64,000 nucleotides of DNA. It comes from Parvularculaceae bacterium. Its GTDB lineage: Bacteria; Pseudomonadota; Alphaproteobacteria; Caulobacterales; Parvularculaceae. Below, in pieces: positions 3,307 to 46,780 of this stretch. The stretch is taken from positions 1,038,282 through 1,102,281 of the forward strand of contig OZ253669.1 of NCBI GenBank assembly GCA_965263375.1. The letters run 5' to 3'. Position numbers and translations under genes: made by a program. Positions within the stretch are counted from its first letter, which is position 1. Every line of letters begins with the position of its first letter. A model generated the notes under the pieces. The model searched no databases, had not been told where the DNA came from, and worked only from the letters and a program-made list of their open reading frames with translations.

Positions 3307-4242
3307 ATGGATGAAAAGAAGAAAACCTCCTTTCAAGGGCTGATTCTAACCTTGCAAAACTATTGGGCTGAACGGGGCTGCGTGCTTCTGCAACCCTATG
3401 ACATGGAAATGGGGGCGGGCACTTTTCACCCGGCGACGACCCTGCGTGCGCTTGGGCCAAAACCGTGGAAGGCGGCTTATGTTCAACCTTGCCGTCGCCC
3501 GACCGATGGGCGCTATGGCGCGAACCCGAACCGTTTCCAACACTATTACCAGTTCCAAGTGGTCTTGAAGCCAAGTCCGGACAATATTCAAGAGCTATAT
3601 CTCGGCTCCCTTGACGCCATAGGCGTTGATCGGTCTATCCATGACATTCGGTTTGTGGAGGATGATTGGGAAAGCCCGACGCTTGGCGCCTGGGGCCTTG
3701 GCTGGGAGGTTTGGTGCGACGGCATGGAAGTCACCCAGTTTACATATTTTCAACAAGTTGGCGGTTTTGAGTGCAAACCTGTAACGGGCGAGATTACATA
3801 CGGTCTTGAGCGACTCGCCATGTATGTCCAAGGGGTCGATAATGGCTATGATCTAGACTTTAATGGCGCCGAAGGCGAAGACGCGATGACTTATGGCGAT
3901 GTGTTCCACCAACAGGAAGTTGAGTTTTCCGCCTATAATTTTGAAATAGCGAACACGGATGACTTGTTTGATCAATTTAAAGAGGCCGAGGCTGCGTGCC
4001 TGGCGATTTTAAAAACAGGTGAAGAAAAAGGCCGCCCCGTGCCGCTGCCTGCTTATGATCAGTGCATAAAAGCCAGCCATCTGTTCAATTTGCTTGATGC
4101 GCGCGGTGTGATCTCTGTTGCTGAACGCCAATCCTATATTTTGCGTGTGCGGACATTGGCCAAAGCCTGCTGCGCCGAATGGCTTGACAGCCCCCAAGGG
4201 CGCACCGAAGGTGCCGGCGTTGTCGATTATGAGGCGGTTTAG
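3307..4242 (+). CDS. glyQ: glycine--tRNA ligase alpha subunit
   Basis: 311 aa. [62 protein letters not shown] and [16 protein letters not shown] are near-identical to canonical GlyQ blocks. Confidence 0.95.
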
Positions 4243-4351
4243 TCAGGCTTGGAAGGTGAGTTAAGGGAGCGGCTCATCCAAAAAAGGGATAATTTCGGCA
4301 AGTAGAAATTATGAAACCCCAGGTTTTTGCAAGCCCCCCTAAGGAATTATT

Positions 4352-4726
4352 ATGGAACATATTTTGCTCGCTGCGGCTTCTTTATTGTGCGTTATTTCTG
4401 CGTTCATTCATTCATATGTGGGTGAAAAGAAGTTAATTGCGCCCGTCATCAGCTCTAAGCATGGCGTATTGACGGATCCGTTGGCCAGGCAGGTGATGCG
4501 TTTTGCCTGGCATTGGACAAGTCTGTTATGGGTGTCGGTCGCAGCCTATCTGGCATTTGCCGCACAAGGACAGATTGTTCATCGCCCCCTTTTGTTGGGC
4601 ATCGGATTTATCCATTTGATCACAGGGCTCGTTGACGGTGTATTCACCCGCGGCAAACACATAGGCTGGCCCCCGATAACATTGATCGGCGTATTGGTGT
4701 TGGCGGCGTGTTTAGCCATTGATTAA
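4352..4726 (+). CDS. hypothetical integral membrane protein (about 4 TM)
   Basis: 124-aa ORF with four hydrophobic segments. No recognisable family. Confidence 0.5.
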   Translation: MEHILLAAASLLCVISAFIHSYVGEKKLIAPVISSKHGVLTDPLARQVMRFAWHWTSLLWVSVAAYLAFAAQGQIVHRPLLLGIGFIHLITGLVDGVFTRGKHIGWPPITLIGVLVLAACLAID

Positions 4727-4845
4727 GTCTTGTATTGCGGCGGTCTGACCGCTCAGAACGGTGCGCTGACCACATATTCTTGCTGTGGGCTTTAAAGCGG
4801 CTTATCACTTTGGTGAAGTCAATTTTGAGGGGTAACCTTGGCCGC

Positions 4846-5283
4846 ATGATGAATGCGCTTCAGCTCCTGATGCCAGTTTTATTTCCATCCTGGCGGTTCT
4901 TTCCTGAGGTCGGGCCTTCACCGCGCATTGAGTATATGCTTTTAAGTCGAGCTGATGACAAACAATCAGCATGGGCGCAATTTTGTCCCCACCCTGAAAG
5001 CCTCTCGTTTTTCCAATCCGCTAAAGGTCTTTTGTGGAACCCTGAGCGTAATAGGGCTTTGTTCCTAGTCACTTGCTCTGAACAGTTTTTAGCGAATGAC
5101 TCAAAGCCTGCTCTGGAGCACCTTGTTGCGCTGGTGCGGGCAGGGTTGATGAATGAGAATGCGGTTGAGCATGATTATTTTCAATTCCGCTTGATGGTTA
5201 TCTTCCGCGAAGGGGACGAACTTGAACGCGAGGAAGTCTATCGCTCCTCCGTGATGCCCTTAAAAGAAGGCGCGATCACGTGA
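4846..5283 (+). CDS. hypothetical protein
   Basis: I prefer the ATG at 4846 (MMNALQLLMP...), which has a GAGGGG about 14 nt upstream. Its 3' end overlaps the next ORF by 4 nt (GTGA), suggesting an operon. Confidence 0.4.
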   Translation: MMNALQLLMPVLFPSWRFFPEVGPSPRIEYMLLSRADDKQSAWAQFCPHPESLSFFQSAKGLLWNPERNRALFLVTCSEQFLANDSKPALEHLVALVRAGLMNENAVEHDYFQFRLMVIFREGDELEREEVYRSSVMPLKEGAIT

Positions 5284-5966
5284 CTGTTGATTTCGCCGTT
5301 CGGCTTACCGAAATTTTGCTGGGTATTGCTCTTGTTCAGCAATGTGCTGAATATTCCGTATTATTACCCCGGCACCGTTTGGTTGTTGCTGTGCGACTGC
5401 TTTTCAGCGGGCTTCTTATTGTCGGCGTTGCCCCAGTGGCCGCGACCTCAGCCTTGATTATAATTGGCCTTTGGCTGCTCATAAAATTTAACGGGCCATA
5501 TAACGGTGGCAGTGATCGTATGAGCCTGCTTGTCTTGATATGCTTGTGGGGTGCGCATTTAGCGCCGAACCAATATTGGCGAGAGATCGCGTTTGCATAT
5601 CTGGCCTTGCAGCTTGTTCTTTCCTATTTTCTATCGGGGGCGGTAAAAATTGTGAAAGCTGACTGGCGAAATGGCAGGGCCTTGCGCGATGTGTTTTTGT
5701 TTTCAGCCTATCCAGTGGCGGAAGCAACGCGCAAATGGGCTGACAGTCCGCGGCTTTTATTTGTGATGTCTTGGGCCGTCATGCTTTTTGAGCTTATTTT
5801 TCCGGTCGTGATTGTGTCTCAGGCTGCATTACTCATTGCACTGTTCTTTGCATTCGTCTTCCACTTATCCAATGCGTATTTTTTCGGATTGAACCGGTTC
5901 GTTTGGGCCTGGGGTGCGGCGTATCCCTCATTGCTCTGGTTTCAGGGAAAGATGTTCCCCGGTTAG
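5280..5966 (+). CDS. hypothetical polytopic membrane protein (possibly HTTM-like)
   Basis: 228 aa with multiple TM segments, coupled to the preceding ORF. The family assignment is only a guess. Confidence 0.5.
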   Translation: MTVDFAVRLTEILLGIALVQQCAEYSVLLPRHRLVVAVRLLFSGLLIVGVAPVAATSALIIIGLWLLIKFNGPYNGGSDRMSLLVLICLWGAHLAPNQYWREIAFAYLALQLVLSYFLSGAVKIVKADWRNGRALRDVFLFSAYPVAEATRKWADSPRLLFVMSWAVMLFELIFPVVIVSQAALLIALFFAFVFHLSNAYFFGLNRFVWAWGAAYPSLLWFQGKMFPG

Positions 5967-12058: not shown

Positions 12059-12259
12059 ATGCCCAAGATGAAGACTAAGTCTGGCGCGAAGAAGCGCTTT
12101 AAAATGACCTCCTCTGGCAAGGTCGTCGCCGGCGGCGCTGGTAAGCGTCACGGCATGATCAAGCGCACGAACAAACAGATCCGTCAAAATCGCGGCACAT
12201 CCGTGCTTGCGGATCCTGATGCGCGCATTGTCAAAAAATATATGCCTTATAACCGGTAG
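12059..12259 (+). CDS. rpmI: 50S ribosomal protein L35
   Basis: [22 protein letters not shown]... from the ATG at 12059. The longer ORF from 11978 is an artefactual extension. Confidence 0.93.
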
Positions 12260-12272
12260 GAGGGATTAAAGA

Positions 12273-12629
12273 ATGTCACGGGTTAAACGGGGCGTTACAA
12301 AACACGCCCGCCATAAAAAAGTTACCAGCGCGGCGAAAGGCTATTATGGCCGCCGCAAAAACACTTTCCGCATCGCCAACCAGGCTGTGGAAAAAGCTGG
12401 CCAGTATGCTTATCGCGACCGCCGCGCGAAAAAACGCAATTTCCGCAGTCTTTGGATCCAGCGGATTAATGCGGCAGCCCGCGAGTTAGATATGACTTAT
12501 TCGCGCTTTATGCATGGCCTTGCACAAGCGGGGATTGAGGTTGACCGTAAGGTTCTTGCTGACATCGCAGTGAAAGAACCAGAAGCCTTTAAAGCCCTTG
12601 CAGAGCAGGCTAAAGCGGCTCTCGCATAG
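12273..12629 (+). CDS. rplT: 50S ribosomal protein L20
   Basis: [17 protein letters not shown]...YRDRR.KKR.FR.LWI.RINAA is canonical L20. Confidence 0.95.
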
Positions 12630-12946: not shown

Positions 12947-13213
12947 ATGATCCGGTCTAAACTTTTCTCAGCTATCCTTGTCGCTGGTGTTGCTCTTACT
13001 TCTGCAGCGCAAGCAAATCAAATGTCCATCTCTTACGATTCATCTCGTATGGATGATCCTGCTTATGTTTCTGAGCTTCGCACGAAAGTGATGAAAGCAG
13101 CGCAAAACTATTGCCGTCAGCAATTAGCGGGCGCCTATACATACAGAGGCTTCAACAAATGTGTTGATGAAACTGTATCTCAAACGTGGGCTGGTCTTAA
13201 GTCACAAGCTTAA
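12947..13213 (+). CDS. UrcA-family secreted small protein
   Basis: 88 aa with a signal peptide. The pattern 'ISYDSS..DDPAYV..L..KV..AA..YC' with two Cys is like UrcA-family proteins. Confidence 0.6.
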   Translation: MIRSKLFSAILVAGVALTSAAQANQMSISYDSSRMDDPAYVSELRTKVMKAAQNYCRQQLAGAYTYRGFNKCVDETVSQTWAGLKSQA

Positions 13214-13539: not shown

Positions 13540-14493
13540 ATGTCTGACCTAAACGTTCTTGAGCAAAATCTTACTGATGAAATCAATGCCGCCGCGGATG
13601 AAACGTCGTTGGAGGCTGTGCGCCTATCCGCCCTTGGTAAAGAGGGTGCGGTCAGCAAGCAGCTACAAACCCTTGGCAAGATGAGCATTGAAGAACGCAA
13701 ACAAATGGGGCCGGTCTTAAACGGGCTAAAAACGCGCATTACAAAAGCGATCGACGATAAAAAACTTCAGCTTGAAGAAGAAGCCTTTGAGGCGCGCCTT
13801 GCCAGCGAAGCGATTGACGTGACCCTTCCTATTCGGCCTGAAGCCATGGGCAAGATCCACCCCATCACACAGGTGAGGGAGGAGCTGGTCAGATTAGTCG
13901 CCCCCTTAGGGTTTGACCTTATTGATTCTGGACCTGGCGAAGGGGCTGCATTGGCCGCTCCCGTCGCCGCCCTAAAAGGGCGTACGGCGCCAACCCGTCT
14001 TATGCTCTTTAATCAAAACTTTGATGAAGATAAAAAAGATGGGTTCACCGGCCATTTGCTTGAAGGGGTCATCGTGGAAAAAGCGATCCATATGGGTCAT
14101 TTGAACGGTTTCTTCAAGACGGTTGTCAGCGCTTTTCTAGGGTTACCAATAGCGCCCATGCGCTTGCGCCCAGATTTTTATCCGGTTACGGAACCTTCTG
14201 CGGTGATGGAGCTGTCTTATGCGCAAACTGGCGGTCTATTAAAGGTTGGGGAGGGAGACCTTTGGGCGCCGGTTGCCGGGGGCGGTATGTTGCGGCCCCA
14301 GGTTTTGGCGGATAACGGCCTTAACCCCAGCGAGGTTCAGGCATGCGTTTGGCGATTTAGCCTCGATCGTCTCACCATGTTAAAATATGGAATTGGGGAG
14401 CAAAAAGAACTTTACACCGCTGATGCGGGTTGGCTCGCCCATTATGGTTTTGAGCCGCTTGTCCAGCCGAATTTAGTGACGGGATCAAACTAA
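13540..14493 (+). CDS. pheS: PheS-like protein (phenylalanine--tRNA ligase alpha-subunit homologue with eroded catalytic motifs)
   Basis: 317 aa. The N-terminal coiled-coil region and C-terminal ...DRLTMLKYGI...WLAHYGF are clearly PheS. The HPAR motif, the LLRTHTS...PGRxYR block, DATHxPxFHQ and motif 3 (GFAFGMGxxR) are altered or missing (see findings). Confidence 0.8.
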   Translation: MSDLNVLEQNLTDEINAAADETSLEAVRLSALGKEGAVSKQLQTLGKMSIEERKQMGPVLNGLKTRITKAIDDKKLQLEEEAFEARLASEAIDVTLPIRPEAMGKIHPITQVREELVRLVAPLGFDLIDSGPGEGAALAAPVAALKGRTAPTRLMLFNQNFDEDKKDGFTGHLLEGVIVEKAIHMGHLNGFFKTVVSAFLGLPIAPMRLRPDFYPVTEPSAVMELSYAQTGGLLKVGEGDLWAPVAGGGMLRPQVLADNGLNPSEVQACVWRFSLDRLTMLKYGIGEQKELYTADAGWLAHYGFEPLVQPNLVTGSN

Positions 14494-14891
14494 TGACCGC
14501 AGATGAACGACCTGAAGGCGCGCTGACGATACGCACCGTTGCGATGCCAGCGGACGCAAATGCTAATGGCGATATTTTCGGCGGCTGGGTCTTGTCACAG
14601 ATGGATATTGCCGGAGGTATAGCGGCGTCGGAGCGTTCCAACGGTCGGGCCGCCACTGTGGCGGTTGAGGCGATGACGTTTTTAAAGCCTGTCCATATCG
14701 GTAATGTTTTGTGCGTCTACACCCAGGTGCTTGGTGTCGGCAATACTTCTATGCGCATACAGGTAGAGGCTTGGGCGCGCCGTCAGCTTACTAATGATCG
14801 TGTTAAGGTGACAGAAGGGGTCTTCACATTTGTGGCGATTGATGAAAATCGGCAAAAGCGCTTGGTTCCAGCTGAAGGCGATCTGTTGTAA
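14493..14891 (+). CDS. yciA: YciA-type acyl-CoA thioesterase (hotdog fold)
   Basis: 132 aa. LTIRTVAMPADANANGDIFGGWVLSQMDIAGGIAA...VEAMTFLKPVHIGNVL is near-colinear with E. coli YciA as I recall it. The start overlaps the pheS-like stop (TAATG). Confidence 0.88.
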   Translation: MTADERPEGALTIRTVAMPADANANGDIFGGWVLSQMDIAGGIAASERSNGRAATVAVEAMTFLKPVHIGNVLCVYTQVLGVGNTSMRIQVEAWARRQLTNDRVKVTEGVFTFVAIDENRQKRLVPAEGDLL

Positions 14892-14918: not shown

Positions 14919-16703
14919 ATGAAATTCTCTCTTAGTTTGCTTAAAGAGCATTTGAAGATAAATGCTGACCTTGATGAGATTGTTGCGGCAATGCTATCGC
15001 TCGGCTTGAACGTTAAGTCGGTTGATAATCCAGCGGAACGCCTAAAAGACTTTACGATCGCTGAAGTATTAGAGGCGGAAAAGCACCCAGATGCTGATAA
15101 GCTGCGGGTGTGTAAAGTCGCTACAAAAGATGGTGAAAAACAAATCGTATGCGGCGCACCGAATGCCCGGGCCGGAATAAAGGTCGCCTATGCGGCGGTG
15201 GGGACGTATGTGCCAGGTATCGATATCACCCTTTCTAAGGCGAAAATTCGCGGCGTTGAAAGCTTTGGCATGATGTGCTCAGCGCGCGAGCTTGAACTTG
15301 GTCAAGATCATGACGGAATAATTGAAGCGCCACAGGCGTCGCAAATCGGACAGGCGGTCGTCGAAGCGCTGAACGCCAACGATCCAATTGTTGAGTTCGA
15401 AGCTCCATCAAACCGTCCTGATGCAAATAAAATTGAGGGTGTTGCGCGCGAGCTTGCGGCTGCGGGGTTCGGGGAATTACTCGCCCCGATTGATGATGGC
15501 TCTTCGGTTATAAGGGAGCTTGAATTTTCCGCGCCGGAACTTCAAGCCCTGACCGGCGCCTCACTAGAGGCGATAACGGTCAAGCGGATTTTGGAAAGCC
15601 TTGGTTTTTCGATTAAAGAAAAAACCGGCTCCCTTTTGTCCGTCGGCATCCCTTCATGGCGTGCTGACGTGAAAGAAAGTGCTGATCTAGTTGAAGATAT
15701 TTTCCGGATTATCGGATATCGTGAAATTCCAGCTGTGCCGTTACCCGGTTTAGGGCATGTCCCGACCATATCGCCTTTATATATGCGCCAAGCGGGCGCC
15801 CGCCGTGTGTTGGCGTCGCGCGGTATGTTGGAATTGGTTGGTCATCCGGGTGCGTCGAATGAGTTCGCATCGTTCTTTCAAAGTAATAAAGACGAAGCTA
15901 ATGACGAAGCTAATGAAGCTCAGACGACACAGTCTCCTCAAAAGGACTTACTGTCCCAATCCCTTTTGCTAACCCTTCTTACTGCGATAAGGGAAAATGT
16001 TGATCGCGCTGCCGAGGGGCTTTCATTCTTTGAATTTGGTCCCATCGTGAAAGCTACGGCGGGGGCGGAGCATTTAACTGTTGTTGGCGGTATTCGTTCA
16101 TCGGGCCGCCCCCGTCACTGGCGGGATGGCTTGGGGCTGGTCGACGTGTTCAGTGTAAAGGCGGATGCTATGGCGACGCTTGAGGCGGCAGGCGCGAAGG
16201 TTTCCTCGCTTCAAACGGCGGTGGACGCGCCTACTTGGTTCCACCCAGGACGGTCAGGTGTTTTGCGCTTAGGGCCAAAGAATATTTTAGCCGCCTTTGG
16301 TGAAGTGCATCCCAAAATATTATTGGAGATGGGAATTGAAGATCGGGCGTACGCTTTTGAGGTCAATCTGAGTGCTATACCGGCCGCTAAACCGAGCAAG
16401 GGGACAGCAAAACCAGTTTATGAGGGTAGGGGTGAAACAGCCATTCGTTGTGATTTCGTCTTTACTGTCCCTAATGATGTGTCTGCCGAAGCGTTCCTTA
16501 ATGCCGTTAAAGGGACTGATAAAAAACATATTTCACATGTAAAGCTTACTGCGCTTAACGCAGCGGGCGAGCAAAAATCGTTATCCGTTGAGGTGACCTT
16601 TGCGCCAAAGGGTAAAACGCTGGATGACGAGGCGATTTCAGCGCTTTCAGCAAAAATTGCTGCTCAAGTGGATAAAGCCACGGGTGGGACGATGCTGAGT
16701 TAG
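14919..16703 (+). CDS. pheT: PheT-like protein (phenylalanine--tRNA ligase beta-subunit homologue lacking the B3/4 editing domain)
   Basis: 594 aa, versus about 800 aa usual. The tRNA_bind OB domain (HPDADKLRVC...VCGAPNA...RGVESFGMMCS), B5-like region (PSWRADV..DLVEDIFRIIGY..IP) and C-terminal FDX-ACB-like region are present. The roughly 200-aa B3/4 segment between SNRPDA... and B5 is absent. Confidence 0.8.
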   Translation: MKFSLSLLKEHLKINADLDEIVAAMLSLGLNVKSVDNPAERLKDFTIAEVLEAEKHPDADKLRVCKVATKDGEKQIVCGAPNARAGIKVAYAAVGTYVPGIDITLSKAKIRGVESFGMMCSARELELGQDHDGIIEAPQASQIGQAVVEALNANDPIVEFEAPSNRPDANKIEGVARELAAAGFGELLAPIDDGSSVIRELEFSAPELQALTGASLEAITVKRILESLGFSIKEKTGSLLSVGIPSWRADVKESADLVEDIFRIIGYREIPAVPLPGLGHVPTISPLYMRQAGARRVLASRGMLELVGHPGASNEFASFFQSNKDEANDEANEAQTTQSPQKDLLSQSLLLTLLTAIRENVDRAAEGLSFFEFGPIVKATAGAEHLTVVGGIRSSGRPRHWRDGLGLVDVFSVKADAMATLEAAGAKVSSLQTAVDAPTWFHPGRSGVLRLGPKNILAAFGEVHPKILLEMGIEDRAYAFEVNLSAIPAAKPSKGTAKPVYEGRGETAIRCDFVFTVPNDVSAEAFLNAVKGTDKKHISHVKLTALNAAGEQKSLSVEVTFAPKGKTLDDEAISALSAKIAAQVDKATGGTMLS

Positions 16704-16785: not shown

Positions 16786-16861
16786 GCCGCATTAGCTCAG
16801 CTGGTAGAGCACATCATTCGTAATGATGGGGTCAGGTGTTCAAGTCACCTATGCGGCACCA
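16786..16861 (+). tRNA. tRNA-Thr (anticodon CGU)
   Basis: Manual cloverleaf: acceptor GCCGCAT/ATGCGGC, D-arm GCTC-AGCTGGTA-GAGC, anticodon arm CATCA-TTCGTAA-TGATG, T-arm AGGTG-TTCAAGT-CACCT, encoded CCA. Confidence 0.9.
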
Positions 16862-17086
16862 GTAAAATCAATGACTTAGATGGGTTTTGTGGTTTGGTTC
16901 AAGGTAGTGTGCTACCAGGGCGCTACCATGAGGATTGATTTCACGGCTATTGATACCTCCCGTCTAAAGAGGTTTTATAGAAAAATAATTAATGCAGTTT
17001 TTCTGGCCAATACCCGAATTATACAAATCATGGAGAATATTGGCAAAGATAGCCATTTGAATGATATTAACTGATAGGGGGAGCTG

Positions 17087-18220
17087 ATGAATAATCATAC
17101 TACCAGTAAAGATGCTGAAAACTCCAATCTTGGATGGCTTAGAAAAGTTTGGAGACAATTCAAAAAGACAGACACATATGGCATCTTAGTTGATGTTATA
17201 GCAGGTGGGGTACCTTTTGGTTTGACGTTGGGTGGCCTCTTGTTGATAGTAATTGGAAGCATCCCTGAGAAACCAGACATATTTATGCGGTCGGTGGCAG
17301 GGGCTGGCAGCGCTATTTTAGCAGGTGGCGTATTCTCTGTGATACTCAAAACAATGCAAGTTAGAGGCGTTTTTCAAGATACTCTCAGCAAAGTTTTGTT
17401 TGATGAGCCTTATCTTAAAAAACGGAATGACCTAAGGGAGTTGTGGTCAAAGGTGACTAGCCTGATTTCGAAACAAAGATTTTCGACATTAGAGAGTCAT
17501 ATGCATGAAGCAATAATGGAGCATTATATTCCAACCAAAGATGATTATTATTTTGAAAATTATTATCGAACATGTGTGGTTAGGTGGAACAATGAAGAAA
17601 CTACAGAAATTTCGCTGAGTGAAGAGATTTCACTGCACATTGTTCCCACGAGTGCAGATGCTGAGATTACATATAAATTTTCATCTAGTCCAAGCCCGGG
17701 AGTGCCTTTAGAAGTGGCTTGTCCGAAAGTTGATTATCTAAAGATAAATAACAAAGTTTATTTTGAAAACGGAAAACCCTTAAAAGAAGAGTATATACAG
17801 GAAGGCAAGGGGAAAGAGGGCGAGGAATTTAAAGTCGCAATACCGCTTGCGGGCTCGAAACGCTACGTAGTTGAAAGACGGTCTCACCGAACATTTCCTA
17901 TGGGGGTTGATCCATTTCAGCGCTATGTTTCGCCAAGATTTATTAAAGGCGCTAAAATTAACGTTCACTGCATTGCTAAAAACTTGCGCGTTCGTTTTGT
18001 ATCGCTAGGAACGCCAAATGAGTTTTCAAGCTTTTTCCCTAAGGAGATTGCGGACATATCTCGTGCGGGGGATATCAACCGCGAATACCCAGGTTTGCTA
18101 TTTCCTGAACAAGGGTATCTACTCGTCTTTCATTATCTTGATCCAAAACTTGTGAAGAGGTTTGATGTTCAGACAAATACGGCCTCGGAAGAAGGCGCGG
18201 CCGCATCTGCCAAAAATTAG
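17087..18220 (+). CDS. orphan hypothetical protein with two N-terminal TM helices and a roughly 280-aa soluble domain
   Basis: 377-aa ORF preceded by a GGGGGAG RBS. Markedly AT-rich coding sequence compared with the flanks. No family recognised. Confidence 0.6.
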   Translation: MNNHTTSKDAENSNLGWLRKVWRQFKKTDTYGILVDVIAGGVPFGLTLGGLLLIVIGSIPEKPDIFMRSVAGAGSAILAGGVFSVILKTMQVRGVFQDTLSKVLFDEPYLKKRNDLRELWSKVTSLISKQRFSTLESHMHEAIMEHYIPTKDDYYFENYYRTCVVRWNNEETTEISLSEEISLHIVPTSADAEITYKFSSSPSPGVPLEVACPKVDYLKINNKVYFENGKPLKEEYIQEGKGKEGEEFKVAIPLAGSKRYVVERRSHRTFPMGVDPFQRYVSPRFIKGAKINVHCIAKNLRVRFVSLGTPNEFSSFFPKEIADISRAGDINREYPGLLFPEQGYLLVFHYLDPKLVKRFDVQTNTASEEGAAASAKN

Positions 18221-18474
18221 TCCCGCGGACGCCGATAATTACGGACAGTAAAACAACGAGTTATTTTTGTCATGTTTGGTGCGCTGCCGTGGTGCGAATC
18301 TTGCGATAAATTGAACACACCCTGCTGAGAGTTAACCTAGCTTTGACAAAAATCAGCCCAATATCTCTGTAGTCAGGGTTGAGATGGAGTTAACCTTTTG
18401 TTAACTGTTTCACCTGCCAGTTGATTCTATAGAAGTTTATTCCGCCTTTACCGATGTTTAGAAAGGGTTTAGAA

Positions 18475-18630
18475 ATGGCTAGTTACCTAGGTTTTTGTTT
18501 GGAGTATCAAACTTTGGCTTCACTAGTGCCCTCAGCTCTTGGAACTGAAACCATGCTTGGAACTGAAACCATGCTTGGAACTGAAACCATGCTTGGAACT
18601 GAAACCATGCTTGGAACTGAAACCATGTAG
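18475..18630 (+). CDS. possible micro-ORF: 51-aa peptide MASYLGFCLEYQTLASLVPSA(LGTETM)x5
   Basis: ATG at 18475 with an AAGGG 7 nt upstream. The ORF reads through all five repeat units and stops at TAG directly after the last unit, with a strong terminator 27 nt downstream. Coding status unproven because other frames of the repeat are also open. Confidence 0.3.
   Translation: MASYLGFCLEYQTLASLVPSALGTETMLGTETMLGTETMLGTETMLGTETM
18538..18627. repeat. perfect tandem direct repeat, 5 x 18 bp (CTTGGAACTGAAACCATG)
   Basis: Read directly: units at 18538-18555, 18556-18573, 18574-18591, 18592-18609 and 18610-18627, with no mismatches and no spacers. Confidence 0.97.
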
Positions 18631-18657
18631 CTAGCTTTAAGATTTAGAGCTGTTAGT

Positions 18658-18683
18658 GCGGGGCAAATTGCCCCGCTTTTTTG
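18658..18683 (+). terminator. rho-independent terminator
   Basis: GCGGGGC-AAATT-GCCCCGC followed by TTTTTT. Only the + strand has the U-run. Confidence 0.75.
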
Positions 18684-18724
18684 TCTAAGTTGAAAAATGG
18701 TTGCCGATTAGAATACCATGAGCG

Positions 18725-19168
18725 CTAGCTACGGAGGCTATAAATTACCAGGTGAGACGTAGCGTTTTTTTTCACTCCATTATCAGCCAGTCCCAATTCC
18801 CGTGCAATGATGTTGGCGTTCAGCATGCTGGCCGCGGCGCCTTCAAATTTCTGCACCCAAATGATGCTCTCCGCTCGTGTAATGATATCAAGAAAACCTT
18901 CGCGCTTTTTGTAATTGAGCCAGGTGGGCAAGCTTATATCGAGGTGTCGGCATAAACCGCTAAGGGTCATGGCGCGCATCTTGGGAATGTCTATGACGGT
19001 GACAGCACCACGATAGGTGAATGCCTTTCTTCGATAGAGCGGGTTCGTCTCCACCCATTCGAAATATTGTTCGCACGCGTCCCACAACTCATCCGGCGAA
19101 GCGAATTTCGGCTTTCGCCCGTGGGGCGTGCGTTGCTTCCAAAATTGATTTCCTTTAGCGGCTGACAT
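18725..19168 (-). CDS. phage terminase small subunit / DNA-packaging protein (orphan)
   Basis: 147 aa. GNQFW..R..HGRKPKF.SPDELWDACEQYFEW...NP ... MTLSGLCRHLDIS..TWLNY resembles the HTH-type small terminase family. No large terminase is adjacent. Confidence 0.6.
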   Translation of the reverse strand: MSAAKGNQFWKQRTPHGRKPKFASPDELWDACEQYFEWVETNPLYRRKAFTYRGAVTVIDIPKMRAMTLSGLCRHLDISLPTWLNYKKREGFLDIITRAESIIWVQKFEGAAASMLNANIIARELGLADNGVKKNATSHLVIYSLRS

Positions 19169-19225
19169 GGTCAGTATCTCCTTATGGGATAGTCCGTGGC
19201 CGCTATCCGCCTGTTAAAATACTCC

Positions 19226-19576
19226 CTAACGGATAAGCCTTACCCCGGGCCCTTCGCCTTCGAGAAACTGAATGCCGCGGGCGGTAAACGCGTCAACGAT
19301 ACGGTCAATCGCGAAACCTGCCATGCCCCATTTTTCCTCCCGGGCTTCCCAATGAGTGAGGGTCTTCGGGTGAAGCCCGGCCGCCTGAGCAAGTTGCTTT
19401 TGCGAAAGGCCGGCTAAGGCGCGAGCGGCGGCAATCTGACGACCCGTTGTAATTGTGCCTGTAGAAATCAATACCCGGTTCCGGGTGATGGGAGCAACAG
19501 GCAGCTTCGAACTTGTCTGCTTGGTTGGTTCGCCATCGAGCGATAGAAAACCCATGTTTGCTGTTTTTGTCATCAC
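19226..19576 (-). CDS. XRE-family helix-turn-helix transcriptional regulator
   Basis: 116 aa. GRQIAAARALAGLSQKQLAQAAGLHPKTLTHWE is a classic XRE HTH. A GGAG RBS lies upstream of the ATG at 19576. Confidence 0.75.
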   Translation of the reverse strand: MMTKTANMGFLSLDGEPTKQTSSKLPVAPITRNRVLISTGTITTGRQIAAARALAGLSQKQLAQAAGLHPKTLTHWEAREEKWGMAGFAIDRIVDAFTARGIQFLEGEGPGVRLIR

Positions 19577-19746
19577 AAAGTTTCTCCAATTTTCAATTGC
19601 ACCATTCCACTCGCCCTGGATGCCCCCTCAATCGCCCCAGATTGAGTCAGGATTCGCAAATGCACCTCTTTTGCACCCTTACCGTGACCCGACCCCTTTG
19701 AACGCAGCCGATTTGAAGTAGTACAAATTAGCAAAGGAGACGTTCA

Positions 19747-20019
19747 ATGTCTGGGAAGAGATACGGGCCGGAAGAGGCCATCAACAAATTACGTGAAGCC
19801 GATATTCTGTTGGGCCAGGGTAAAACAGTTGGCGAAGTGATCCGTCAGCTCGGTGTGAATAAAGTGACTTACTACAGGTGGCGCCGAGAGTTTGGCGGCA
19901 TGAAAGTCGAACAGGCGAAACGGCTGAAGGAACTGGAAAAAGAAAATGGCCGGTTGAAGCGTCTTCTGGCTGACGCCGAACTCGATAAAGCGATCCTCAA
20001 GGAAGCCGCGTCGGGGTGA
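19747..20019 (+). CDS. IS3-family transposase OrfA (HTH / leucine zipper)
   Basis: 90 aa. ...VTYYRWRREFGGM..EQAKRLKELEKENGRLKRLLADAELDKAILKEAASG is typical IS3 OrfA. It ends at TGA 20017-20019. Confidence 0.85.
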   Translation: MSGKRYGPEEAINKLREADILLGQGKTVGEVIRQLGVNKVTYYRWRREFGGMKVEQAKRLKELEKENGRLKRLLADAELDKAILKEAASG

Positions 20020-20934
20020 TTGAATTCAATCACGGTAGGGCCTTCACGCAAACGCGACTTTATTGAACATGCTTGCGATAAGCTCGGCGTCTCAGAACGC
20101 CGGGCTTGTCGCCTGCTCAAGCAACATCGTTCAACGCAGTGGCGTAAACCGCAAAAAGTTGACGATGAAGATGCGCTGACCATCGCCATTATTGAGCTGG
20201 CGAGCATCTATGGCCGCTATGGCTACAAGCGGATTACGGCGTTGCTGAAAGCAATTGGCTGGCATGTGAACCACAAACGCGTGGCGCGTATCTGGAAGCG
20301 TGAAGGCCTGAAAGTTCCGAAAAAACAGCCCAAACGCGGCAGGCTATGGCTGAATGGCGGGTCGTGCGTTCGCTTGCGGCCGCAACACCGCAACCATGTT
20401 TGGAGTTATGATTTCGTGCAGGATAAAACCCGCGACGGGAAGAAGTTCCGCATGCTCACCGTCATTGATGAGTTCACCCGCGAATGTCTGGCAATTACTG
20501 TCGCACGGCGGCTGAACAGTCAGGACGTTCTTGATGTTCTGGCCGATCTGATGACGACGCGCGGCGTCCCCGATCACATTCGTTCAGATAACGGCGGCGA
20601 ATTCCGGGCCAAAGCGGTACAGAAACTACTCGGCAAAGTCGGCGTGAAAACCCTTTACATAGAACCGGGTTCGCCATGGGAAAACGGATACAATGAATCT
20701 TTCAATGGCCGATTGCGTGACGAGTGCTTAAACGTGGAGCTTTTCAATAATTTGATGGAGGCCAAAATCATCATTGAGCAATGGCGTGTCCGATACAACA
20801 CAATCCGTCCGCATTCAGCCTTGCAGTACAAACCGCCAGCGCCGGAAACATTAAACCCGGCCGATCTGGCTCCCGCTATTTGGCAGCTCCCGCCAGACCG
20901 GCCTTCCATCGAAAGCAATAGTATGGTTGCATAG
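20020..20934 (+). CDS. IS3-family transposase OrfB (rve/DDE integrase core), in the same frame as OrfA
   Basis: ...[17 protein letters not shown]...[10 protein letters not shown]...HVWSYDF...[12 protein letters not shown]...IRSDNGGEF...[18 protein letters not shown]... The frame continues directly from the OrfA stop codon. Confidence 0.85.
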
Positions 20935-46066: not shown

Positions 46067-46780
46067 TTATTCCGTCATTTTACGGATTGTATCTTTTATT
46101 CGGTCGTCTTCTTGTTGGAGCATGCGCTGCCCCATTTCATAGGTGCGCTGAACCTCAATCAAATGGGCGATTTCAGTAACAGCATTGACATTTGAACCTT
46201 CAACAGCGCCCTGTAAAAGGCGCGCATCAGTCGCTGGCTCGTAACCTTCTTCAGTGGAAAAGACATTGTCGCCCTCGCGAGTTAAGCTCGCCCGATTGGT
46301 TGTGACCATGCCGATTTGGCCGATCGCTTGTCCATCAGCGCTTAAAGTGCCGTCTGCCGAAGCCGTTATGGCGCTTGTTCCAGCTGGAATAGCTAATGCG
46401 CCGCCGCCATTGTTCAATACACGGAAGCCTTCTTGCGTTGAAAGCTCGCCTTGGCCGTTTAAGGTGAATGAACCAGCGCGGGTTAACCGCTCGCCATTGG
46501 GGGTTTCAACAAGGAAAAACGCGTCACCTTCGATTGCAAAGTCAAGTTTGTTATCGGTGACAGTAACTTCCCCTTGGCTTAAATCGATGATGTGGCGGTT
46601 CATCACCGCCATGGAAAGGCTGGGGTCTTCCATGTCGAGAGCTTTAATATGCTCTGAAAAAGAAGTGGCTTCACGGCGATAGCCCGCCGTGTTTACGTTC
46701 GCAATGTTATTCGCGATTATGTTGAGCTGTTTAAATAACCCAGACTGACGGGTGAGGGCGACATAGCTAGCGTTATCCAT
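46067..46780 (-). CDS. flgF: flagellar proximal rod protein FlgF
   Basis: 237 aa. MDNASYVALTRQSGL...L..IANNIANVNT.GYRRE and C-terminal ...GAVEGSNVN.V.E...LIEVQR.YE. Confidence 0.88.
   Translation of the reverse strand: MDNASYVALTRQSGLFKQLNIIANNIANVNTAGYRREATSFSEHIKALDMEDPSLSMAVMNRHIIDLSQGEVTVTDNKLDFAIEGDAFFLVETPNGERLTRAGSFTLNGQGELSTQEGFRVLNNGGGALAIPAGTSAITASADGTLSADGQAIGQIGMVTTNRASLTREGDNVFSTEEGYEPATDARLLQGAVEGSNVNAVTEIAHLIEVQRTYEMGQRMLQQEDDRIKDTIRKMTE

What the first reader, a model, noticed from the sequence alone, without database searches (positions are those of the whole stretch)
14919..16703. PheT homologue lacks the B3/4 editing domain and has a diverged core, but keeps its tRNA-binding modules
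The protein is 594 aa, versus roughly 800 aa for bacterial PheT.

Well conserved:
- N-terminal B1 and the tRNA_bind OB fold (HPDADKLRVCKV...VCGAPNARAG...RGVESFGMMCS).
- B5-like region (PSWRADVKESADLVEDIFRIIGYREIP).
- The HPGRS...FGEVHP block.
- C-terminal FDX-ACB-like domain.

Missing or diverged:
- After '...VEFEAPSNRPDANKIEGVARELAAAGFG' the sequence passes through only about 25 residues straight into the B5-like region. The roughly 200-aa B3/4 editing domain therefore appears to be missing.
- In the B6/7 region, 'NPIS...MR.SLLP.L' reads SPQKDLLSQSLLLTLL.
- That region also carries an acidic insert made by a 12-bp tandem duplication (GACGAAGCTAAT x2 at 15891-15914, giving DEANDEAN).

Together with the eroded alpha subunit, this suggests a tRNA-binding complex without synthetase or editing chemistry.
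Basis: partly seen in the sequence, partly recalled or inferred. Interest (0 to 1): 0.7.

Follow-up and report, generated by a model that had tools for sequence, protein, structure and literature searches.

The report
Dead PheRS pair kept at ancestral locus
At the usual ribosomal-protein/pheST locus, this marine alphaproteobacterium carries a phenylalanyl-tRNA synthetase pair that has lost its catalytic, proofreading and anticodon-reading parts but is still kept by selection, so another enzyme probably charges tRNA-Phe.

Summary
The 594-aa PheT homologue (14919-16703) lacks the whole ~212-aa B3/4 editing domain. This was checked by Pfam, alignment to about 55 relatives and an AlphaFold model. 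A second assembly (L001, 95-97% nucleotide identity) has the same deletion, so it is not an assembly error.

The C-terminal B8 domain keeps its fold but has lost the residues that read anticodon base G34: the FDxY motif is substituted or deleted, and the penultimate Arg is now Leu.

The partner PheS (13540-14493) lacks the motif-2 arginines, the HPAR and THTSPVQ blocks and the Phe-pocket residues. It very probably cannot make Phe-AMP.

Both genes are positional orthologues of canonical pheST (rpmI-rplT-pheS-pheT-tRNA-Thr) and of vertical descent. Both evolve under purifying selection (dN/dS 0.18 and 0.35). Constraint has moved to the alpha coiled coil and beta B1-B2 and B5.

Best reading: a pseudo-PheRS retained for a role that does not involve aminoacylation, probably binding of the tRNA body. 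A working PheRS must exist elsewhere in the genome, but I could not search for it.

Among the 150 best of 1.84 billion representative proteins, only this lineage has this architecture.

The parts
12059..12259 (+). rpmI (ribosomal protein L35), the first gene of the conserved rpmI-rplT-pheS-pheT block
   Evidence: Translation. Identical protein in L001. The Ribosomal_L35p Pfam label is on the equivalent gene in L001, L083 and L084.
12273..12629 (+). rplT (ribosomal protein L20)
   Evidence: There are 0 non-synonymous and 6 synonymous differences to L001. This serves as the baseline for a strongly constrained gene.
12947..13213 (+). 88-aa ORF with a signal-peptide-like N-terminus, inserted between rplT and pheS'
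   Evidence: It has no Pfam hit. It is conserved in L001 with dN/dS 0.07. It is absent from Hyphococcus DH-69, where rplT and pheS are 178 bp apart.
13540..13839 (+). pheS' N-terminal coiled-coil domain (aa 1-100), retained
   Evidence: Pfam Phe_tRNA-synt_N, 68.8 bits. Identity to canonical relatives is 64%, against 77% among the canonical relatives themselves. dN/dS is 0.10. The model shows long helices 2-89.
13840..14493 (+). pheS' eroded class II core (aa 101-317, plus the stop codon)
   Evidence: The Pfam tRNA-synt_2d model matches only from profile position 95 to 245. TIGR00468 scores 127 bits against a cutoff of 237. About 40 residues are deleted (DFHNF..HPAR..DTF..LRTHTSPVQIR). PGRTYR has become FNQNF. 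Motif 3 GFAWGMGVDRL has become ACVWRFSLDRL. Identity to relatives is 32-44%, where canonical proteins share about 90%. dN/dS is about 0.2.
14493..14891 (+). yciA-like hot-dog thioesterase inserted between pheS' and pheT'. Its ATG overlaps the pheS' stop codon (TAATG).
   Evidence: Pfam 4HBT, 67 bits. NCBIfam YciA scores 148 bits, below its cutoff of 162. L001 keeps only a 12-codon remnant, after a 360-bp in-frame deletion between CTGAAGGCG repeats. The gene is therefore dispensable for the pheS'-pheT' pair.
14919..15482 (+). pheT' B1-B2 (aa 1-188), including the tRNA_bind OB fold. This is the best-preserved part.
   Evidence: Pfam tRNA_bind, 78.5 bits. Identity to P0003 is 80%, against 84% among canonical proteins. 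86% of the columns that are at least 90% conserved among canonical relatives are kept. dN/dS is 0.18.
15483..15512 (+). Junction linker (aa 189-198, PIDDGSSVIR) in place of the ~212-aa B3/4 editing domain
   Evidence: Alignments A1 and A3. No B3_4 Pfam hit. tblastn with the B3/4 region of P0003 finds nothing anywhere in the window.
15513..15728 (+). pheT' B5 domain (aa 199-270). It has diverged strongly but is now tightly constrained.
   Evidence: Pfam B5, 71.5 bits. Identity to relatives is 37%, against 66% among canonical proteins. dN/dS is 0.08, from 1 non-synonymous and 4 synonymous changes.
15729..16376 (+). pheT' B6/7 catalytic-like module (aa 271-486). The N-terminal half is eroded and the C-terminal half is conserved.
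   Evidence: Pfam tRNA_synthFbeta, 83 bits. The N half is 32% identical (80% among canonical proteins), with dN/dS 0.91 and pLDDT below 50 at residues 324-344. The C half, containing the FHPGRSGVLRLGPKNILAAFGEVHP block, is 66% identical and keeps 85% of conserved columns.
15887..15916 (+). 12-bp tandem duplication (2.5 copies) encoding DEANDEAN, inside the relaxed half of B6/7
   Evidence: Tandem Repeats Finder, score 53. Sequence read. L001 has a single copy.
16377..16703 (+). pheT' B8 (FDX-ACB-like) domain (aa 487-594, plus the stop codon). The fold is kept but the anticodon-G34 contacts are lost.
   Evidence: Pfam FDX-ACB scores 34.2 bits against a cutoff of 31.1. The canonical 'LFDVYEG' is reduced to 'L----TALN' (F->T544, D->A545, Tyr deleted). 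The C-terminal '..LRx' has become '..MLS' (R->L593). These positions correspond to T. thermophilus Phe728/Asp729/Tyr731/Arg780, which bind G34 (PMC8136816).
16786..16861 (+). tRNA-Thr(CGU), the conserved downstream neighbour of pheT in this family
   Evidence: ARAGORN and Rfam. It is 100% identical in L002, directly after canonical pheT, and is present after pheT in many relatives. Synteny with L001 ends at its 3' end.

Best explanation
**Shown**
- pheS' (13540-14493) and pheT' (14919-16703) are the vertical, positional orthologues of the canonical pheST operon of a Parvularculaceae-like alphaproteobacterium.
- The beta chain has lost the whole B3/4 editing domain and the B8 residues that read anticodon base G34.
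- The alpha chain has lost the class II motif-2 arginines, the HPAR and THTSPVQ blocks and the Phe-pocket residues.
- Both reading frames are intact and show fewer non-synonymous changes than neutrality predicts.
- Constraint is concentrated on the alpha coiled coil, beta B1-B2 (OB fold), B5 and the C-terminal half of B6/7.

**Inferred**
- The pair can no longer activate Phe, charge tRNA or edit. It is a pseudo-synthetase.
- It probably still assembles through the retained motif-1 helix and the B6/7 interface.
- It is kept for a role that does not involve aminoacylation.
- The most likely such role is anticodon-independent binding of the tRNA body or another structured RNA, through the OB fold and the coiled coil.
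- Phe-tRNA-Phe synthesis must be done by another PheRS encoded outside this window. That enzyme is most likely a foreign (xenologous) one, because no close paralogue from the same contig appears in the database searches.
For: **Domain loss**
- No B3_4 Pfam hit, and scores below the equivalog cutoffs for both chains.
- A clean ~212-aa gap in alignments to 5 and then 55 canonical relatives.
- The AlphaFold models still match PheRS beta and alpha.

**Dead alpha chain**
- Only 73 of 142 columns that are at least 90% conserved among canonical relatives are kept. 20 are deleted and 49 substituted, including both motif-2 Arg residues.
- The pattern of constraint is reversed. The core is 32-44% identical to relatives that share about 90% with each other. 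The coiled coil is 64% identical against 77%.

**B8**
- The FDxY motif and the Arg are lost. Their roles are taken from PMC8136816.

**Orthology and vertical descent**
- The rpmI-rplT-pheS-pheT-tRNA-Thr order is shared with L002, L012, L083 and L084.
- The C-terminal 409 aa still match Parvularculaceae-clade PheT best.

**Selection**
- Against L001, pheS' has dN/dS 0.18 (14 non-synonymous, 23 synonymous; p = 7e-7).
- pheT' has dN/dS 0.35 (42 non-synonymous, 37 synonymous; p = 1.3e-5).
- About eight indels relative to canonical genes are all in frame.

**Not an artefact**
- The same architecture is present in the independent contig L001.

**No close second copy seen**
- No cluster among the 120 best PheT or PheS hits contains a second protein from the 3,299,539-bp contig.
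- There is none in the window either.
Against: - The second, working PheRS was not found. The rest of the genome could not be searched, so its existence rests only on the essentiality of PheRS.
- Only two sequences of this lineage exist and they are close (dS about 0.09). The selection estimates therefore rest on 37 and 79 substitutions and cover only recent history.
- dN/dS is relaxed compared with rplT (0). It is about 0.9 in the N half of B6/7, so part of the protein is drifting.
- tRNA binding is inferred from which domains are conserved. Nothing was measured.
- In solved PheRS-tRNA complexes the B2 domain is not a major tRNA contact (my recollection of the literature).
- No expression evidence is available.
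Confidence: 0.6

Rival explanations
1. Decaying relic. After a replacement PheRS arrived, the ancestral pheST became useless and is on its way to being lost. The open frames and apparent constraint would be leftovers of slow decay, with no present function.
For: - Catalytic, editing and anticodon determinants are all lost.
- dN/dS is 0.91 in the N half of B6/7, and a strain-specific 12-bp duplication lies there.
- Overall dN/dS is well above that of rplT.
- The lineage is very rare, with 2 sequences among 5.8 billion.
Against: - dN/dS is significantly below 1 for both genes (p = 7e-7 and 1.3e-5). It is 0.08-0.18 in B5, B1-B2 and the coiled coil.
- Sequencing errors in the 1.95x-coverage L001 contig would push dN/dS towards 1, not away from it.
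- 911 codons remain open despite 55-70% divergence in the eroded regions.
- About eight indels are all in frame, roughly (1/3)^8 by chance.
- Erosion is strongly domain-selective rather than uniform.
Confidence: 0.22
2. Modulator of the real PheRS. The dead subunits mix with, or dock onto, the working PheRS. They could form hybrid tetramers or hand over tRNA in trans. Either way they would tune charging or fidelity rather than act as a free RNA-binding complex.
For: - The interface elements are among the better conserved parts: the motif-1 helix of alpha' and the C-terminal half of B6/7 (85% of conserved columns).
- Pseudo-synthetases that regulate an active partner are known, for example HisZ with HisG (my own knowledge).
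Against: - No partner is known.
- If the working enzyme is foreign, its interfaces are unlikely to match.
- Nothing in the neighbourhood points to a partner. yciA is dispensable, and there are no PADLOC hits.
Confidence: 0.1
3. Still the cell's only, unusually minimal, working PheRS that has merely dispensed with editing, as mitochondrial PheRS has.
For: - It sits at the canonical locus.
- No second copy was seen in the window or among close database hits.
- Editing-free PheRS exists in mitochondria (my own knowledge; structures such as 3cmq appear).
Against: - Both motif-2 arginines are gone, and this motif is invariant in class II synthetases.
- HPAR and THTSPVQ are deleted and the Phe-pocket residues replaced.
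- TIGR00468 scores 127 bits against a cutoff of 237.
- The core is 32-44% identical where canonical enzymes share about 90%.
- G34 recognition is lost.
Confidence: 0.03
4. Assembly or sequencing artefact: a collapsed region or mis-join that removed B3/4.
For: An apparently B3/4-less PheT fragment (P0249) turned out to come from a scaffold gap of 100 N.
Against: - The same in-frame deletion, the same eroded alpha chain and the same synteny occur in an independent assembly from another sample, at 95-97% nucleotide identity.
- There are no N runs.
- The divergence extends far beyond the junction.
Confidence: 0.01

Closest known systems
Canonical bacterial (alpha-beta)2 phenylalanyl-tRNA synthetase (PheS/PheT; TIGR00468/TIGR00472; structures 1PYS, 3PCO, 4P71, 7K98)
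   Same: - It is the positional and vertical orthologue, with the rpmI-rplT-pheS-pheT-tRNA-Thr order.
- It keeps the same folds for the alpha coiled coil, the class II core sheet, and beta B1, B2, B5, B6/7 and B8.
- B1-B2 is 80% identical to close relatives.
   Different: - The B3/4 editing domain is absent.
- The G34-binding FDxY motif and Arg in B8 are lost.
- The alpha motif-2 arginines, HPAR, THTSPVQ and Phe-pocket residues are lost.
- Both chains score below the curated family cutoffs.
Mitochondrial (monomeric) PheRS, which naturally lacks the B3/4 editing domain
   Same: A PheRS relative with no B3/4 domain and hence no post-transfer editing. It keeps a B8-like domain (my own knowledge; weak structural matches to 3cmq and 3tup).
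   Different: - The mitochondrial enzyme is one chain: an active alpha-like core fused to an anticodon-binding domain that still works.
- Here there are two separate chains, the alpha core is dead, and B8 has lost its anticodon contacts.
- B1, B2, B5 and B6/7 are retained here.
HisZ and other pseudo-synthetases (catalytically inactive aaRS paralogues retained for another role)
   Same: The aaRS fold is kept, the catalytic motifs are lost, and the gene is under purifying selection. This implies a function other than aminoacylation. What HisZ does is my own knowledge.
   Different: - HisZ is an extra paralogue alongside the normal HisRS and has a known partner, HisG.
- Here the ancestral gene pair itself, at its native locus, has become the pseudo-enzyme.
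- Both subunits of a heteromer are affected, and no partner or ligand is known.
Stand-alone tRNA_bind OB-fold proteins (Trbp111, CsaA, YtpR)
   Same: They share the B2-type OB fold: PF01588 at 78.5 bits, and NF045760 YtpR at 120.7 bits over residues 17-146. A structural match to a YtpR model has rmsd 1.4. If the proposed role is right, it would work like these proteins, binding tRNA by structure and independently of the anticodon.
   Different: - Those proteins are small, about 110-200 aa, and stand alone.
- Here the fold is embedded in a 594-aa PheT remnant that is paired with a PheS remnant.
Mycoplasma PheRS with naturally inactivated editing sites
   Same: Natural loss of PheRS proofreading in a bacterium (my own knowledge).
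   Different: In Mycoplasma the B3/4 domain is present but carries point mutations, and the enzyme still charges tRNA. Here the domain is deleted outright and the synthetic site is also destroyed.

Membership tests
Bacterial PheRS beta subunit (PheT, TIGR00472 equivalog) | Full domain series B1-B2-B3/4-B5-B6/7-B8, including the Pfam B3_4 editing domain | tested here: not met
   Pfam finds tRNA_bind, B5, tRNA_synthFbeta and FDX-ACB but no B3_4. There is a ~212-aa gap in alignments A1 and A3.
Bacterial PheRS beta subunit (PheT, TIGR00472 equivalog) | Score at or above the curated equivalog cutoff | tested here: not met
   341.1 bits against a cutoff of 402.65.
Bacterial PheRS beta subunit (PheT, TIGR00472 equivalog) | B8 residues that recognise anticodon G34 (T. 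thermophilus Asp729, Tyr731, Arg780) | tested here: not met
   D->A545, the Tyr is deleted, and R->L593. Only the Asp696 equivalent is kept. Residue roles are from PMC8136816.
Bacterial PheRS beta subunit (PheT, TIGR00472 equivalog) | Orthologous position downstream of rpmI-rplT-pheS, and vertical descent | tested here: met
   Synteny with L001, L002, L012, L083 and L084. Both halves of the protein match Parvularculaceae-clade PheT best.
Bacterial PheRS beta subunit (PheT, TIGR00472 equivalog) | Tyr-tRNA-Phe deacylation and support of tRNA-Phe charging | not testable with these tools
   This needs enzymology.
PheRS alpha subunit (PheS, TIGR00468 equivalog; class II aaRS) | Score at or above the curated equivalog cutoff | tested here: not met
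   127.3 bits against a cutoff of 237.45. The Pfam core model matches only from profile position 95.
PheRS alpha subunit (PheS, TIGR00468 equivalog; class II aaRS) | Class II motif-2 arginine and the adenylate/Phe-binding residues (HPAR, THTSPVQ, Gln218, Phe258/260, Ala314) | tested here: not met
   PGRTYR has become FNQNF with the second Arg deleted. 20 conserved columns are deleted and 49 substituted.
PheRS alpha subunit (PheS, TIGR00468 equivalog; class II aaRS) | Motif-3 arginine and the N-terminal coiled coil | tested here: met
   R277 is kept, although the motif-3 glycines are replaced (G->R272, G->S274). Phe_tRNA-synt_N scores 68.8 bits, and the model shows helices 2-89.
Pseudo-synthetases (inactive aaRS homologues kept for another role, such as HisZ) | aaRS fold retained while catalytic residues are lost | tested here: met
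   The AlphaFold models match PheRS alpha and beta. Catalytic residues are lost.
Pseudo-synthetases (inactive aaRS homologues kept for another role, such as HisZ) | Maintained by purifying selection | tested here: met
   dN/dS is 0.18 and 0.35, p = 7e-7 and 1.3e-5, from a single pair of close sequences. All indels are in frame.
Pseudo-synthetases (inactive aaRS homologues kept for another role, such as HisZ) | Coexists with an active synthetase for the same amino acid | not testable with these tools
   - Only 64 kb of the genome is available.
- There is no second pheS, pheT or B3/4 in the window.
- There is no close paralogue from the same contig among database hits.
- The genome-contig scan did not retrieve this genome.
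Stand-alone tRNA_bind proteins (Trbp111/CsaA/YtpR) | tRNA_bind OB fold | tested here: met
   PF01588 scores 78.5 bits. NF045760 scores 120.7 bits over residues 17-146.
Stand-alone tRNA_bind proteins (Trbp111/CsaA/YtpR) | Small, free-standing protein | tested here: not met
   594 aa, with B5, B6/7 and B8 attached.
Mitochondrial-type monomeric PheRS | A single chain with an active alpha-type core fused to a B8-type anticodon-binding domain | tested here: not met
   There are two separate genes. The alpha core is inactive and the B8 contacts are lost.

The most novel reading that the evidence does not exclude
A foreign PheRS took over tRNA-Phe charging, and the native PheRS was not discarded. It was stripped down to the parts that serve a second, charging-independent job of bacterial PheRS: the alpha coiled coil, beta B1-B2, a remodelled B5 and the subunit interface. 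That would make this pair a natural separation-of-function allele. It would expose the long-suspected non-canonical role of the accessory domains, in tRNA-body or nucleic-acid binding.
Probability: 0.3. Interest if true: 0.78.

Novelty: new variant of a known kind. Interest (0 to 1): 0.62.

Why it matters
PheRS is universal and essential, and its pheST genes sit in one of the most conserved bacterial gene neighbourhoods.

Here the genes at that very locus have lost every determinant of charging, proofreading and anticodon reading, yet they remain under selection. Three things follow.
- It implies an unseen replacement of an essential synthetase.
- It adds a two-subunit pseudo-PheRS to the short list of pseudo-synthetases.
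- It shows by natural experiment which PheRS modules are worth keeping when catalysis is no longer needed. The purpose of the B1, B2 and B5 accessory domains of bacterial PheRS has never been settled, and this protein offers a direct handle on the question.

It also matters for annotation. Pipelines will probably label these genes as PheRS subunits, and metabolic reconstructions may wrongly count them as the cell's PheRS.

Tried and rejected
**Looking for a second PheRS**
- I scanned genome contigs with the closest full-length PheT, P0003. The scan uses exact peptide patterns that the window gene does not contain.
- I looked in the homologue lists for a second protein from the same 3,299,539-bp contig. 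None was found. This argues against a close paralogue on that contig. It cannot exclude a distant or foreign PheRS, or one on another replicon.
- I checked two 'ncbi,ena' PheT hits as possible second-replicon copies (P0024, P0008). Both are ordinary canonical loci of other organisms.
- Exact look-ups of window proteins to name the genome all failed: the window PheT and SdhA were not on record, and the cluster look-up for PheT and PheS gave no names or accessions.
- A tblastn search of PLSDB plasmids with a canonical PheS found plasmid-borne pheS in other taxa and none from relatives. A megablast search with the window's IS3 element found nothing.

**Looking for more members of the lineage**
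- A metagenome-contig scan with the diverged C-terminal 409 aa found no relatives.
- P0249, an apparently B3/4-less PheT, is an artefact of a 100-N scaffold gap.

**Hypotheses rejected**
- Chimeric origin, with the N-terminus from one lineage and the C-terminus from another. The C-terminal part still matches the same Parvularculaceae-clade proteins best.
- Part of an anti-phage defence system. There are no PADLOC hits for pheS', pheT', yciA, the 88-aa ORF or the 377-aa ORF.

**Uninformative**
- A comparison of Shine-Dalgarno sequences as a proxy for expression. Many bona fide genes in this window lack a clear site.
- I searched for an att-like repeat of the tRNA-Thr 3' end, to delimit an island. 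There is none in the window.
- Literature searches for a PheT without B3/4 or for a pseudo-PheRS found nothing relevant.
Full report
**What is at the locus**

The plus strand from 12.0 to 16.9 kb carries these genes:
- rpmI and rplT
- an 88-aa ORF
- a 317-aa PheS homologue (13540-14493)
- a 132-aa YciA-like thioesterase (14493-14891), whose ATG overlaps the PheS stop codon
- tRNA-Thr(CGU) (16786-16861)

**The B3/4 domain is absent**

- Pfam finds tRNA_bind, B5, the B6/7 catalytic-like module (tRNA_synthFbeta) and FDX-ACB in the 594-aa protein. It finds no B3_4 domain.
- The NCBIfam equivalog for bacterial PheT scores 341 bits against a cutoff of 403, and matches in two pieces.
- Close full-length relatives are 802-806 aa. 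Alignment to them shows one clean gap of about 212 residues, bridged by about ten residues (PIDDGSSVIR).
- An AlphaFold model built on 57 sequences (pLDDT 79) has a short linker at that point. Its best structural matches are bacterial PheRS beta chains.
- tblastn with a relative's B3/4 region finds nothing anywhere in the 64-kb window.
'NPISSDLxxMRPSILPNL' reads 'SPQKDLLSQSLLLTLL'. The FHPGRS...FGEVHP block is nearly unchanged. A 12-bp unit repeated 2.5 times at 15887-15916 gives DEANDEAN.

**It is not an assembly error**

- A search of 5.8 billion proteins found exactly one other protein with this architecture. This is P0002, 590 aa and 93% identical, on a 9.1-kb contig from a different metagenome (L001).
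- L001 is 95-97% identical to the window at the DNA level. It has the same gene order, the same eroded PheS and the same deletion.
- It lacks the DEAN duplication, so that duplication is recent and strain-specific.

**The genes are the ancestral pheST, not an extra copy**

- In relatives the order rpmI-rplT-pheS-pheT-tRNA-Thr is conserved. The relatives checked were Hyphococcus DH-69, a TARA contig carrying the closest full-length PheT (P0003), and others.
- The tRNA-Thr after the TARA pheT is 100% identical to the window's.
- Both the N-terminal 185 aa and the diverged C-terminal 409 aa match the same Parvularculaceae-clade proteins best. The protein is therefore a vertically inherited, fast-evolving orthologue and not a chimera.

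**The alpha subunit is catalytically dead**

I aligned it with Hyphococcus and E. coli PheS, with PDB sequences, and with 46 canonical relatives. It lacks:
- about 40 residues carrying DFHNF..LN.P..HPAR..DTF and LRTHTSPVQIR
- both arginines of motif 2 (PGRTYR has become FNQNF)
- Gln218 and Phe258/Phe260 (T. thermophilus numbering)
- the small residues of motif 3 (GFAWGMG has become ACVWRFS)

Only 73 of 142 columns that are at least 90% conserved among canonical relatives survive. The motif-2 arginine is invariant in class II synthetases (established knowledge). I therefore regard adenylate formation as excluded. The TIGR00468 score is 127 bits against a cutoff of 237. The fold itself is still predicted with confidence and matches PheRS alpha.

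The C-terminal B8 (FDX-ACB) domain is barely above the Pfam threshold, at 34.2 bits against 31.1. On its own it finds no PheRS in the PDB.

In solved complexes, anticodon base G34 stacks on T. thermophilus Tyr731 (M. tuberculosis Phe780). It is also hydrogen-bonded by Asp729 and Arg780 (PMC8136816). In relatives these residues lie in 'LFDVYEG' and in the penultimate Arg. In the window protein:
- Phe and Asp are replaced (T544, A545)
- the Tyr falls in a 4-residue deletion
- the Arg is now Leu593

L001 has the same changes. The module that makes PheRS specific for tRNA-Phe is therefore disabled.

**The erosion is selective**

| Region | Identity to canonical relatives | Identity among canonical relatives |
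|---|---|---|
| beta B1-B2 | 80% | 84% |
| beta B5 | 37% | 66% |
| beta B6/7, N half | 32% | 80% |
| beta B6/7, C half | 66% | 80% |
| beta B8 | 48% | 62% |
| alpha coiled coil | 64% | 77% |
| alpha core | 32-44% | about 90% |

The beta values are each against P0003; the alpha values are means over eight canonical relatives. The parts that are normally most conserved are now the least conserved, and the reverse is also true.

**The genes are still under selection**

Window against L001 gives dS of about 0.09.

| Gene or region | dN/dS | Counts (non-synonymous / synonymous) | p for dN/dS < 1 |
|---|---|---|---|
| pheS' | 0.18 | 14 / 23 | 7e-7 |
| pheT' | 0.35 | 42 / 37 | 1.3e-5 |
| B5 | 0.08 | | |
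| alpha coiled coil | 0.10 | | |
| B1-B2 | 0.18 | | |
| B8 | 0.36 | | |
| B6/7, C half | 0.53 | | |
| B6/7, N half | 0.91 | | |

- The name of the L001 contig indicates about 1.95x coverage. Random errors would raise dN/dS, so these values are conservative.
- About eight indels relative to canonical genes are all in frame, and 911 codons remain open.
- The caveats are that only one close pair of sequences exists and that the counts are small.

**Interpretation**

The pair is best described as a pseudo-PheRS.
- It cannot activate Phe, cannot edit, and cannot read the Phe anticodon.
- It is nevertheless kept, with constraint on the alpha coiled coil, the beta OB-fold domain, a remodelled B5 and the probable subunit interface.
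- In canonical complexes the alpha coiled coil touches the tRNA elbow.
- The beta OB-fold domain is the same fold as Trbp111 and YtpR.
- I infer that the pair still assembles and binds the tRNA body, or another structured nucleic acid, without anticodon specificity.
- That last step is inference only.

**What I could not establish**

PheRS is essential, so a working enzyme must be encoded elsewhere. I could not test this.
- The window has no second copy.
- No cluster among the top PheT or PheS hits contains a second protein from the same 3.3-Mb contig. This argues against a close paralogue and for a foreign or distant one.
- The genome itself could not be retrieved.
- Plasmid-borne pheS genes exist in other bacteria, so transfer of this gene does happen.

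**How unusual it is**

- An exhaustive HMMER search of 1.84 billion representative proteins listed the 150 best hits. Only the representative of this lineage aligns in one piece.
- The other 149 hits are 762-861 aa long and align as two blocks separated by the B3/4 domain.
- A search with the C-terminal part alone found only contig-end fragments of canonical PheT. One apparent exception was a scaffold gap.
- Literature searches found no described bacterial PheT without B3/4 and no pseudo-PheRS.
- Pseudo-synthetases as a class are known, HisZ for example. I therefore rate this a new variant of a known kind.

**Verdict**

It is wrong on the anticodon-binding domain.
- The finding is uncommon and interesting.
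- Its significance depends on finding the replacement PheRS and on showing what the remnant binds.

Noticed in passing
window 14493-14891; L001 3611-3650: A YciA-like acyl-CoA thioesterase gene sits between pheS' and pheT', with its ATG overlapping the pheS' stop codon (TAATG). In L001 a 360-bp in-frame deletion between two CTGAAGGCG repeats has reduced it to a 12-codon ORF (MTRDEQPEGDLS*). Other relatives carry different small genes in the same pheS-pheT gap: DUF302 plus a 96-aa ORF in L083, and a 143-aa ORF in L084.
   Followed up: partly
window 12947-13213: An 88-aa ORF with a signal-peptide-like N-terminus lies between rplT and pheS'. It has no Pfam family. It is conserved in L001 (dN/dS 0.07) and absent from Hyphococcus DH-69, where the rplT-pheS gap is 178 bp.
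   Followed up: partly
window 16862-20934: Synteny with L001 stops exactly at the 3' end of tRNA-Thr. Downstream in the window lie a 377-aa ORF with no family hit, a phage gp3-like DNA-packaging protein (18725-19168, minus strand) and an IS3-family transposase (20020-20934). This looks like the remnant of an element integrated at the tRNA. No att-like repeat of the tRNA end was found in the window.
   Followed up: partly
window 3307-5966: glyQ, the GlyRS alpha subunit (480 bits), is not followed by glyS. Three small ORFs follow instead (124, 182 and 228 aa), the last with a weak HTTM match. Where glyS lies is unknown.
   Followed up: no
window 46773-49202 (minus strand): An 809-aa ORF directly downstream of motA, inside the large flagellar gene cluster (about 29-63 kb), has no Pfam hit at E <= 0.001. 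I first checked it because its length is typical of PheT.
   Followed up: partly
L085 3000-4000: A run of 100 N in a scaffold splits a canonical pheT, so the gene caller reports a 424-aa 'PheT' with no tRNA_bind or B3_4 domain. Such fragments dominate the hit list when only the C-terminal part is used as the query, and they could be mistaken for editing-less PheT.
   Followed up: yes
PLSDB plasmids, e.g. NZ_CP079608.1, CP101362.1, NZ_CP083923.1: Complete pheS genes are annotated on ordinary-sized plasmids of Klebsiella (110-144 kb), Salmonella (12.9 kb) and Enterococcus faecium (21 kb). Extra, mobile copies of PheRS genes therefore do circulate.
   Followed up: no
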